Positions 48,555 through 50,620 of a DNA stretch of 64,000 nt are shown piece after piece; positions within the stretch are counted from its first letter, which is position 1; each line of letters begins with the position of its first letter. The translations under genes were made by a program, and so were the position numbers. Source of the DNA: the human T2T-CHM13v2.0 reference genome, Homo sapiens; the NCBI RefSeq assembly GCF_009914755.1, contig NC_060934.1, one strand, 5' to 3'. The notes beneath the pieces were generated by a model. It had not been told where the DNA came from and made no database searches. It saw nothing but the letters and a program-made list of their open reading frames with translations.

Positions 48555-48908
<354 letters not shown>

Positions 48909-49367
48909 TAATTCTGAACAATGTACAGAACTGTGAAATTGGAGAAACACTAATTTGCTTTTATTCCATTATTTTGTTATACATAAAAATCAACTAATCC
49001 TTTTTAGTGAGATGTTTGGGTAACATCAGGGTCTCCATTAAAAACATGTTTTAGTAAGAGATTCCATACGAGTAATAAGGATCTGCTAATATCACAACTT
49101 GTTAGTATTGCAGCATACAGTAATTTAAACCCTTGCAATAAGTGAATAAACATAAACACTAATAAATAATAAGCATTCACAAATGAATTGATAGCACAGA
49201 AAATATCAGTATGATTTTGAAAACAAAAATGTTCAAAAATTAATCAGGAAACTTTTTCAAAATAATATTAAGGAGTAAACACAAAGAGTAAGCATGACTT
49301 TCAATTCCCCCCGCCCACCAAGAAAATAAAAATTAAAGGGGTGTTTTAAGGAAGTTTCTGTACCAAC

Positions 49368-49508
49368 CTGCCTTTTGCTGACTTCTGAAGTGGCTCTCTT
49401 GAGGTTCAATGACCTTGAAAACCTTAACGCCTTCACCGAATCCTTCCGAGAGGTCCCAGAAAAAGAGTAATACCTCTTTGCAGGTTTCCCCTTCGCTCTG
49501 TCTGCCAT
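49368..49508 (-). CDS. Candidate alternative first coding exon of host gene (47 aa, MADRAKGKPAKRYYSFSGTSRKDSVKALRFSRSLNLKRATSEVSKRQ)
   Basis: GAG-ATG-G Kozak; 141 nt open to CAG|GTTGGT donor in phase 0; unique non-repeat sequence. Confidence 0.5.
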
Positions 49509-50289
49509 CTCAACCCATTAGGAAGACAAAATCCTCAACAGCACAGACTTCAAGACTAACAACAGAATAAAATGATCCCCAAATAAACAGTCCACCCAAA
49601 ATGTAAATAAACAACCTGTTTTGCTCAGTCCTCAAGGAAAGGGCAAAACCTCAAGTAAAGGGTAAAAAATGGAAAGCAGGTGGAAAATAGGGGAACACAT
49701 TCCACCACCTAAGTAACCCCTCAATGGACGGCACAGACGGCATCCGGCAGTGTGGACTCCAGGTTCACCAGGGAAACCAGCTACGCCTCAACTGCACCAA
49801 ATTAAAACTGCACCAGTCAAACAGGCCGGAGGTAGTTTGTCAAGAGTAAAACAGGGTGTAGCAAAACACCCTGGAGTCAGCAGGGTGTGAGAGCACACAT
49901 CAGGTTCAAAGAAGTCTCTCAACGCATTCCTTGCCAAAATAGACAGAGGGCTATAGGATAGGATCAAATCACCACTCCTACTTCAAACCAGGAGCCCTCG
50001 GAGTGTGACTATTTTGTTAAGCTCTTTGAAAACTCTCTTCTTCCAGTGAATGAGAAATGGAGTGATCGGATGCTCAAATACACATATTTTACTCAGAGAA
50101 ACACAAAACAAAATAGTCACAAGCATTACGAATTAGGAGTCTGGAACGCCACCTCCCATGTCACAGAAAGAGGAGGGAGGGTGTTTTTATACCCTTTCAA
50201 AAGGCAACAGGAACATCTTTCCTTCATTTTATCTCAGGTCTCACTGAACTGAAGTTGAGCTCGAGAACAGGTCACGAAAATAAGACAAG

Positions 50290-50620
50290 TCGTCTGTGCA
50301 GGAACAGGGATGGAACTGGAGGCCATTATCCTATGTGAAATCACCAAATCAGACACCGCATGTTTCACTTACAAGTGGAAGCCAAACAGTGGGTACATAC
50401 AGACACACAGAGCAGAATAACAGACACTGGAGACTCCAAGAGGTGGGAGGGTGCAAGGTGTGAGGACAGAAAATTACCTTCTGTGTACAATGTTCACTAT
50501 TTAGGTGATGGATGCACTAAAAGCCCAGACTCCACCACTACCCAATATGAGCATGTAAGAACCTGCACTTGTACTATCTAAATATATAAAAATAAAAATA
50601 AAAATTTTAAAGAAAATAAA
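50290..50620 (+). mobile_element. L1M 3' end fragment
   Basis: ggatggaactggaggccattatcct...acctgcacttgtac, A-rich tail. Confidence 0.85.

What the first reader, a model, noticed from the sequence alone, without database searches (positions are those of the whole stretch)
49368..49508. Hidden alternative first exon predicted to replace the PARD3 oligomerisation domain with a polybasic phospho-switch
Seen in sequence: a strong Kozak (gagATGG), exactly 47 codons, then CAG|GTTGGT in phase 0, in unique DNA. The peptide has 14 K/R, 3 acidic and 10 S/T residues, with basophilic kinase motifs KRYYS, RKDS (PKA-like) and LKRATS (LxRxxS, AMPK/MARK/PKD-like). Recalled knowledge: PARD3 exons 1-2 encode residues 1-74, most of the CR1/PB1-like self-association domain, and exon 3 starts in phase 0 (LVAVFDEQ). 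Inference: splicing gives ...SKRQ-LVAVFDEQ, a non-oligomerising Par3 isoform. Its basic-hydrophobic N-terminus could bind membranes and be released by phosphorylation, as in Lgl, Numb and Miranda. It may already exist as a predicted transcript; I cannot check this.
Basis: partly seen in the sequence, partly recalled or inferred. Interest (0 to 1): 0.85.

Follow-up and report, generated by a model that had tools for sequence, protein, structure and literature searches.

The report
Conserved alternative first exon of PARD3
This stretch inside a large PARD3 intron is a real alternative first coding exon, kept in mammals and at least one bird, that gives a Par3 polarity protein without its self-association domain; it is already in automatic gene models of other species, but I found no study of it.

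Summary
On the minus strand, an ATG at 49508 in a gagATGG context opens 47 codons, followed by CAG|GTTGGT at 49368/49367. The DNA is single-copy in the genome.

Sequence alone is weak evidence, because the window holds 159 ATG ORFs of at least 47 aa. Comparison settles it. The peptide is the N-terminus of 23 of 23 named predicted PARD3 isoforms found: ground squirrel, donkey and Przewalski's horse. A crow PARD3 record has a 52-codon version with the same junction.

The frame, the ATG and the GT donor hold across 31 sequences. The flanks change frame and carry stop codons.

Human exons 1 and 2 encode residues 1-74, and exon 3 starts in phase 0. The isoform therefore loses nearly all of the PB1-like oligomerisation domain.

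The "polybasic phospho-switch" remains speculation:
- Only R-x-D-S-[VL]-K and a few other residues are invariant.
- The basic-hydrophobic score is no higher than in many random ORFs.
- No amphipathic signal was found.

Human expression could not be tested. Eight paper searches found no description of the isoform.

The parts
49368..49508 (-). Coding part of the alternative first exon: ATG plus 46 codons, ending ...AAA AGG CAG in phase 0
   Evidence: Searches give the sequence. Searches give 30 related sequences, with exon lengths of 46, 47, 48 or 52 codons only. One search shows a single frame across the exon. One search gives 83% ungapped identity to human in the exon, against 13% in the 20 codons after the donor region.
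49359..49367 (-). 5' splice site, intron side: GTTGGTACA after CAG
   Evidence: All 16 mammal-type read-through ORFs listed continue V-G after the last exon codon (GTN GGN), so GT and G at +4 and +5 are kept. The sauropsid-type ORFs continue V-G or V-C. The 23 named models splice exactly here.
49509..49720 (-). Probable 5' leader. Holds an in-frame TAA (49520-49518), a 2-codon uORF ATGGGTTGA (49518-49510) and a 22-codon uORF from 49700; a 30-codon uORF from 49743 starts just upstream of this range. The 5' end is unknown.
   Evidence: The Przewalski's horse models carry 60 in-frame codons upstream of MADR that are colinear with a genomic ORF, P0002, so the exon reaches at least 180 nt upstream in that species. 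In human this stretch aligns only with frame changes and stops.
49832..49918 (-). Conserved non-coding block 325-410 nt upstream of the ATG; candidate promoter or TSS region (inference only)
   Evidence: In one search, P0031 and P0032 align here at 62-69% in another frame with a human stop inside, and P0002 aligns at 65% over 49808-49867. There is no CpG island: o/e is 0.32 over 49368-49950, and 188 of 635 background windows are as high.

Best explanation
Window 49368-49508 (minus strand) is the coding part of a genuine alternative first exon of PARD3. It lies in intron 2 and is conserved in mammals and at least one bird.

Proposed mechanism:
- Transcription starts at an internal promoter without a CpG island, upstream of 49508. 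This step is inferred.
- The exon's phase-0 donor CAG|GTTGGT joins the phase-0 acceptor of exon 3, about 162 kb downstream. This is shown in gene models of other species; in human only the sequence fit is shown.
- The product is Par3 in which residues 1-74 are replaced by a 47-residue basic, serine-rich head. Residues 1-74 are nearly all of the PB1-like N-terminal domain that builds head-to-tail Par3 filaments.
- PDZ1-3, the aPKC-binding region and the C-terminus are kept.

The isoform should therefore be a Par3 scaffold that does not oligomerise (inferred from recalled work on the N-terminal domain).

The head is disordered over residues 1-20 and probably helical over 21-46. Its residues invariant across all 31 sequences are S17, R21, D23, S24, K26, R29, S33 and T40. 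This pattern points to a regulated interaction module with a basophilic-kinase site at S24 (R-[KR]-D-S-[VL]-K). Whether it binds membrane, a partner protein or both is open.
For: 1. Gene models. One search returned 32 proteins among 37 candidates, of which 23 are named PARD3 isoforms: Ictidomys tridecemlineatus X15, Equus asinus X18 and 21 isoforms of Equus przewalskii. 23 of 23 contain KRQ|LVAVFDEQ. 2 start at MADR and 21 have it at residue 61 after an in-frame leader. 0 carry exon 2 sequence in front.

2. Depth. A profile search of 1.84 billion representatives gave 8 hits, including two distant ones, P0048 and P0049. A follow-up search found Corvus moneduloides PARD3, which starts MADTPKRK...QKKQ|LVAVFDEQ. 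P0049 searched back against the whole human assembly hits this locus best (47% over 63 aa, E 0.02).

3. Coding-type constraint.
- Exon length is 47 codons in 21, 48 in 2, 46 in 1 and 52 in 7 of the 31 sequences.
- M1 is kept in all 31, including those whose ORF begins further upstream.
- Ungapped identity to human is 706 of 846 (83%) in the exon, against 44 of 333 (13%) in the 20 codons after the donor region.
- The flanks are alignable only in other frames and with human stops.

4. Human frame fit. Exons 1, 2 and 3 are all phase 0.

5. Loss of the domain. PF12053 positions 1-75 of 83 map to exons 1 and 2. P0005 and P0027 match only PDZ families. The best 60 of 262 PDB matches to P0009 are all PDZ domain chains except one 28-residue Par-3 chain (4dc2_Z, matching residues 776-803), and no match lies before residue 400.

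6. Structure. AlphaFold2 on the 16-row alignment gives a helix over 21-46 with block pLDDT of 78-80, and low confidence over 1-20.
Against:
- The RefSeq row supplied with the finding lists 11 transcripts and shows no exon of the selected one in the window.
- Only human was read in DNA. Its donor has T at +3 and G at +4, away from the GTRAGT consensus (recalled).
- If the human leader is as long as in the horse, it holds uORFs of 30, 22 and 2 codons, which would lower translation.
- No CpG island or other promoter signal was shown.
- The other-species records are automatic predictions, and I could not see their RNA support.
- The unnamed ORFs were found because they are open, so species with a broken exon are under-sampled. 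One hit, P0047, lacks the M and the RKDS core and looks decayed.
- No orthologous DNA was available, so dN/dS and codon-position tests were not done.
Confidence: 0.8

Rival explanations
1. The exon is real and coding in other amniotes but is silent or barely translated in human. The intact human ATG, frame and donor would then be retained by recent ancestry rather than by use.
For: Human has its own in-frame TAA and an out-of-frame uATG 10 nt before the start, where other mammals read W-W/T-E. Two longer uORFs lie in the likely leader. The supplied RefSeq row shows no exon here. One unnamed relative (P0047) looks decayed, so loss in a lineage does happen.
Against: The human copy has all 18 residues that are invariant in the 16-row alignment, which itself includes the human sequence. 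It also has an intact donor and a good ATG context. The uATG has C at -3 and its uORF is 2 codons, so leaky scanning is plausible (inference). A 94%-identical relative, P0034, is also intact.
Confidence: 0.12
2. It is a conserved non-coding element, such as an enhancer or a non-coding RNA exon, whose open frame is incidental. The gene models would have called a CDS only because a frame happened to be open.
For: The surrounding 900 bp is also alignable among mammals. No DNA-level test of codon periodicity could be run. All the models are automatic.
Against: Indels inside the 47 codons are whole codons only, in 31 of 31 sequences. Conservation drops from 83% to 13% at the donor, and the flanks change frame. 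The bird and other sauropsid-type versions keep the ATG, the in-frame length and a phase-0 GT donor at only about 47% identity. Substitutions are mostly K/R, S/T and V/I/L exchanges.
Confidence: 0.05
3. The 141 bases are used as an in-frame cassette exon between exons 2 and 3, with the acceptor at gAG|ATGG. This would insert 47 residues into the N-terminal domain rather than replace it.
For: An AG lies directly before the ATG, with a pyrimidine run (ttttgtcttcct) 12-23 nt upstream. Exon 2 ends and exon 3 begins in phase 0, and 141 is a multiple of 3. The codon before M is E or K in all relatives, which is compatible with ...AG.
Against: 0 of 23 named models carry exon 2 sequence before MADR. 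The 21 horse models run colinear with the genome for 60 codons upstream. G at -3 of an acceptor is strongly disfavoured (recalled), and 11 purine-rich bases separate the pyrimidine run from the AG.
Confidence: 0.03

Closest known systems
Predicted PARD3 isoforms of other species: Ictidomys tridecemlineatus variant X15 (P0005), Equus asinus X18 (P0009), Equus przewalskii X2-X38 (P0006-8, P0010-27), and Corvus moneduloides UniRef A0A8C3EDU6 (P0053)
   Same: They carry the same exon, at 89% identity to the human peptide in the three mammals. They share the ATG, the phase-0 junction to LVAVFDEQ and the PDZ-only Pfam content.
   Different: They are automatic models in other species. The horse models start 60 codons further upstream, in a leader that is closed by stops in human. 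The bird exon has 52 codons and a different tail.
PKM-zeta, produced from an internal promoter of PRKCZ
   Same: An internal promoter in a Par-complex gene gives a product without the N-terminal PB1 region. PKM-zeta is described as transcribed from an internal promoter in the discussion passage of PMC13385426 and as an N-terminally truncated form in the passage of PMC8204866.
   Different: PKM-zeta loses an autoinhibitory region and becomes a constitutively active kinase. Here a scaffold loses its polymerising domain and gains a new conserved 47-residue head.
Engineered Par3/Bazooka constructs lacking the N-terminal CR1 domain (recalled: Mizuno 2003, Benton and St Johnston 2003, Feng 2007; not read here)
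   Same: They remove the same domain and predict weaker clustering and weaker junctional or cortical localisation.
   Different: Those are laboratory truncations. This is a natural isoform, with a conserved replacement peptide that might compensate.
Basic-hydrophobic, aPKC-regulated membrane motifs of Lgl, Numb and Miranda (recalled: Bailey and Prehoda 2015; not read here)
   Same: A basic, serine-rich segment with basophilic kinase sites. The BH peak is 0.69-0.86 in the eight sequences scored (the scale is recalled).
   Different: The score does not discriminate, since 49 of 159 random ORFs reach the human value. There is no amphipathic moment. No binding or phosphorylation data exist.

Membership tests
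Protein-coding alternative first exon of PARD3 | Start codon kept across species | tested here: met
   M1 is kept in 31 of 31 sequences. In the ORFs that open further upstream the M is internal, so it is not forced by the ORF caller. Caveat: a caller may print M for a non-ATG start in ORFs that begin there.
Protein-coding alternative first exon of PARD3 | Frame kept open, with indels of whole codons only, while the flanks are not | tested here: met
   Lengths are 46, 47, 48 or 52 codons in 31 of 31. The flanks align in other frames with stops. Identity is 83% in the exon against 13% after the donor region. Sampling favours open copies.
Protein-coding alternative first exon of PARD3 | GT donor kept, in a phase that fits the exon 3 acceptor | tested here: met
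   V follows the last exon codon in all read-through ORFs. The human exon 3 acceptor is tttctag|CTG in phase 0.
Protein-coding alternative first exon of PARD3 | Transcripts that join the exon to exon 3 | tested here: inconclusive
   The junction is present in 23 of 23 named mammal models and 1 crow record, but these are predictions and their RNA support was not visible. No human RNA data are on hand.
Protein-coding alternative first exon of PARD3 | Own promoter or TSS upstream | not testable with these tools
   Only indirect evidence exists: a conserved block at 49832-49918, no CpG island, and horse models that reach at least 180 nt upstream.
Par3 N-terminal PB1-like oligomerisation domain (Pfam PF12053) | Match to the family profile | tested here: not met
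   P0005, P0027 and the 47-aa peptide give no PF12053 match at E up to 0.1. In the human genome, profile positions 1-41 and 40-75 of 83 lie in exons 1 and 2, which the isoform skips. This is the expected result for the isoform.
Basic-hydrophobic phospho-regulated membrane motif (Lgl/Numb/Miranda type) | BH score above 0.6 over a 19-residue window | tested here: inconclusive
   The human peak is 0.69, with 3 windows over 0.6; seven relatives score 0.71-0.86. However, 66 of 159 control ORFs exceed 0.6 and 49 reach 0.69. Scale and threshold are recalled.
Basic-hydrophobic phospho-regulated membrane motif (Lgl/Numb/Miranda type) | Conserved basophilic phospho-acceptor sites inside the basic segment | tested here: met
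   R21, D23, S24 and K26, plus S17, S33 and T40, are invariant in 31 of 31. Which kinase acts on them is inference.
Basic-hydrophobic phospho-regulated membrane motif (Lgl/Numb/Miranda type) | Binds acidic membrane and is released on phosphorylation | not testable with these tools
   This needs liposome or cell assays.
Amphipathic membrane-binding helix | Hydrophobic moment above that of composition-matched shuffles | tested here: not met
   Maximum muH is 0.65 (11-residue window) and 0.37 (18-residue window), reached by 826 and 1527 of 2000 shuffles respectively (the scale is recalled). A helix over 21-46 is predicted.
14-3-3 mode I site (R-S-x-pS-x-P, recalled) | Pro at +2 of a serine with Arg at -3 or -4 | tested here: not met
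   In the sequence, no serine or threonine has P at +2.

The most novel reading that the evidence does not exclude
The head is an ancient regulatory module, shared by mammals and at least one bird. It gives a monomeric Par3 its own switchable anchor. Unphosphorylated, the basic helix and tail hold the protein at acidic membrane or on a partner. Phosphorylation of the invariant S24 (R-[KR]-D-S-[VL]-K), and of S33 or T40, by PKA-type or aPKC-type kinases releases it. Tissues that use the internal promoter could then run Par3 scaffolding (PDZ, aPKC, Tiam1) without filament or condensate formation, or damp the clustering of the canonical isoform.
Probability: 0.15. Interest if true: 0.7.

Novelty: new member of a known kind. 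Interest (0 to 1): 0.45.

Why it matters
Nearly all work on Par3 localisation, clustering and phase separation rests on the N-terminal oligomerisation domain. A natural isoform without that domain, shared by mammals and at least one bird, would be a built-in test of what Par3 does as a monomer. It carries a replacement head that is under constraint.

It also bears on how antibodies, N-terminal tags and exon-1 or exon-2 targeted alleles are interpreted. Such alleles would leave this isoform intact, whereas exon-3 alleles would remove it.

The exon itself is not a discovery, since automatic pipelines have already modelled it in other species. What appears to be open is its use in human and its function. 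Eight full-text searches found nothing. Subscription papers and supplements were not searched.

Tried and rejected
- **Whole-genome search with long proteins.** Searches with P0009 and P0005 failed twice with a machine error. An alignment query is not accepted for this genome.
- **Paralogous exon in PARD3B.** Searches of the whole assembly with P0033 and P0049 found only the PARD3 locus, plus two chance-level hits at E 1.6 and 6.9. No paralogue was detected, though a diverged one could be missed.
- **Profile search of representatives.** The 2237-aa hit P0046 looks like a bacterial surface-type repeat protein (my reading of its sequence). It matches 9 times over profile positions 35-59 through a ...NVKRATIL..KDQVGG repeat, and I rejected it as chance.
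- **Solved structures.** The exon profile has no match better than E 0.34.
- **Pfam on the peptide:** 0 families.
- **CpG island:** none.
- **Amphipathic helix:** not supported.
- **BH score:** does not discriminate. Replacing S24, S31, S33 and S41 by E in the score lowered the peak only from 0.69 to 0.63.
- **Papers.** I read only the passages that name PARD3, or the search term, in PMC5100263, PMC13385426, PMC8204866, bioRxiv 10.1101/826156, PMC4912780, PMC3142162 and bioRxiv 10.64898/2026.03.11.710989. They concern gene lists, last-exon or polyadenylation events, or aPKC. None concerns this exon.
- **Peptide word search.** A search for the first 11 residues of the peptide as a word found 0 papers.
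- **Not run.** No complex prediction was run. dN/dS was not possible because no orthologous DNA could be fetched.

Full report
**What is there.** On the minus strand, an ATG at window 49508 sits in gagATGG. It opens 47 codons, MADRAKGKPAKRYYSFSGTSRKDSVKALRFSRSLNLKRATSEVSKRQ. The last codon, CAG, ends at 49368 and is followed by GTTGGT. If unspliced, the frame continues to 83 aa. The DNA is single-copy: a search of the whole 3.1-Gb assembly with the 83-aa ORF returned only this locus.

**Is it more than chance?** From the window alone, only weakly.
- The window holds 159 ATG ORFs of at least 47 aa.
- On the minus strand, 169 ATG...GT phase-0 pairs have at least 47 codons. Of these, 35 have a purine at -3 and G at +4, and one also has AG|GT. 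That one is this site.
- The plus strand has one such pair, without G at +5.
- The basic, serine-rich composition is found in 1 of 159 control ORFs, namely this one.
- All of these filters were chosen after the fact.

**Gene structure.** The Pfam model of the Par3 N-terminal domain places PARD3 exon 1 at chr10:34843416-34843538 and exon 2 at 34724817-34724924, which is window 66817-66924 and lies 2.8 kb past the window's end. A stretch of a squirrel PARD3 protein places exon 3 at 34545422-34545604.

Reading the junctions gives the following:
- Exon 1 encodes M1-K40 and is followed by |gtgagg.
- Exon 2 follows tatag| and encodes D41-R74, followed by |gtgagt.
- Exon 3 follows tttctag| and starts CTG GTA GCA GTG TTT GAT GAG CAG, which is LVAVFDEQ.

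The candidate exon lies in intron 2, about 17.3 kb downstream of exon 2 and about 161.8 kb upstream of exon 3 in gene direction.

**Comparative evidence.** A search of 5.8 billion proteins for longer proteins containing the peptide gave 32 hits among 37 candidates.
- 23 are named PARD3 isoforms: Ictidomys tridecemlineatus variant X15, Equus asinus X18 and 21 isoforms of Equus przewalskii.
- All 23 contain KRQ|LVAVFDEQ. Two begin at MADR, and 21 have it at residue 61 behind an in-frame leader. None has exon 2 sequence in front.
- The other 9 hits, and 12 more from the near-length search (13 hits, one of them the window's own ORF), are unnamed ORFs that read through the donor.

A profile of 16 of these sequences was searched against 1.84 billion representatives and gave 8 hits:
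- four known members;
- one repeat protein, bacterial by the look of its sequence, rejected as chance;
- one copy that looks decayed (P0047);
- two distant relatives of the form MAD...SFSYDRRRDSVKV.RQ.KSLSFKSAT.

Following one of the distant relatives led to a Corvus moneduloides PARD3 record that starts with a 52-residue version joined to LVAVFDEQ. Searched back against the human assembly, the sauropsid-type peptide hits this locus best. The database is clustered at 90% identity, so isoforms that differ only at the N-terminus are mostly hidden inside clusters. The absence of a human or mouse record among the hits therefore says nothing.

**Coding or merely conserved?**
- Across 31 sequences the exon has 47 (21), 48 (2), 46 (1) or 52 (7) codons, so indels are whole codons only.
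- M1, S17, R21, D23, S24, K26, R29, S33 and T40 never change.
- Within mammals the core SFSG.SRKDSVKALR.SRSLNLKR.TS is almost fixed.
- V follows the last exon codon in every read-through ORF, so the GT is kept.
- tblastn of nine orthologous ORFs against the window shows one frame across the exon. The 400 bases upstream and the 370 bases downstream align only in other frames and with human stops.
- Ungapped identity to human falls from 706 of 846 (83%) in the exon to 44 of 333 (13%) in the 20 codons after the donor region. Human indels in that stretch make the second figure a low estimate.

This is the pattern of a coding exon. I could not fetch orthologous DNA, so no dN/dS or periodicity test was done. 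The sample is also biased towards open copies.

**What the isoform is.** Profile positions 1-75 of the 83-position Par3 N-terminal family lie in exons 1 and 2.
- The squirrel and horse isoforms match only PDZ families.
- The best 60 of 262 PDB matches to the donkey isoform are all PDZ domain chains apart from one 28-residue Par-3 chain (4dc2_Z, matching residues 776-803).
- The product is therefore Par3 without its PB1-like polymerising domain. From recalled work on that domain, it should not form filaments or clusters by itself.

**The head.**
- AlphaFold2 on the alignment gives a disordered 1-20 and a helix over 21-46 at pLDDT of about 78-80.
- The helix is not amphipathic beyond what shuffles give.
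- The basic-hydrophobic score peaks at 0.69, just over the recalled 0.6 threshold, but 49 of 159 random ORFs do as well.
- No 14-3-3 mode I site is present.
- A phospho-regulated interaction module is a fair reading of the invariant residues. The specific membrane-switch model has no support yet.

**Points against use in human.**
- There is no promoter signal and no CpG island.
- Human alone has a TAA and an out-of-frame uATG just before the start. Two longer uORFs lie where the horse leader runs.
- The donor departs from consensus at +3 and +4.
- The supplied RefSeq row shows no exon here.
- GENCODE, CAGE, RNA-seq and proteomics were out of reach.

**Literature.** Eight full-text searches, and the PARD3 or search-term passages of seven papers, gave no description of this exon or of a natural Par3 isoform lacking the N-terminal domain. 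Supplements and subscription journals were not covered.

**Verdict.** The exon and its splice to exon 3 are real features of PARD3 in mammals and at least one bird, and are already present as automatic predictions in other species. The human copy is intact, but its use is untested. The proposed phospho-switch is an open hypothesis.

Noticed in passing
L008 (G000 C10:43347624-43347812, minus) and L009 (C10:38205530-38205718, plus): Two further copies of the PARD3 exon 3 region lie elsewhere on chromosome 10. They are 75% and 72% identical at the protein level, and one carries a TAG. blastn shows about 84% nucleotide identity over 368-370 bases spanning the exon and its intron flanks, plus further blocks. 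They are therefore old segmental copies, not retrocopies.
   Followed up: partly
window 49832-49918, minus strand: This non-coding block 325-410 nt upstream of the ATG aligns with the rodent-like ORFs P0031 and P0032 at 62-69% in a different frame, with a human stop inside. The horse-like P0002 aligns at 65% over 49808-49867. It may be the promoter or TSS region of the alternative exon.
   Followed up: partly
window 49510-49520, minus strand: Human reads TAA TGG GTT GAG before the ATG, where other mammals read W-W/T-E or W-L-E/K. This gives an in-frame stop and an out-of-frame two-codon uORF, ATGGGTTGA, that ends one base before the main ATG.
   Followed up: partly
P0047 (unnamed source): One relative found by the profile search has W-A-G-R in place of M-A-D-R, has lost the RKDS core, and keeps ...KSLNLKRAISEISQKQVG. 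It looks like a lineage in which the exon has decayed.
   Followed up: no
P0006-P0008, P0010-P0027 (Equus przewalskii models): All 21 models start 60 codons upstream of MADR, in a stretch that is closed by stops in human and not conserved in frame. This is probably a longest-ORF start call and not the true start.
   Followed up: partly
window 48600-48880 and about 50360-50600, minus strand: As read, an Alu lies about 500 bases downstream of the exon and an L1-like 3' fragment lies about 850 bases upstream. The exon and its conserved flanks sit between them in unique DNA.
   Followed up: no
P0046: A 2237-aa repeat protein, bacterial by the look of its sequence, matched the exon profile nine times through a ...NVKRATIL..KDQVGG... 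repeat (E 1.6e-11). This is chance resemblance amplified by repeats and is a caution for short basic profiles.
   Followed up: yes
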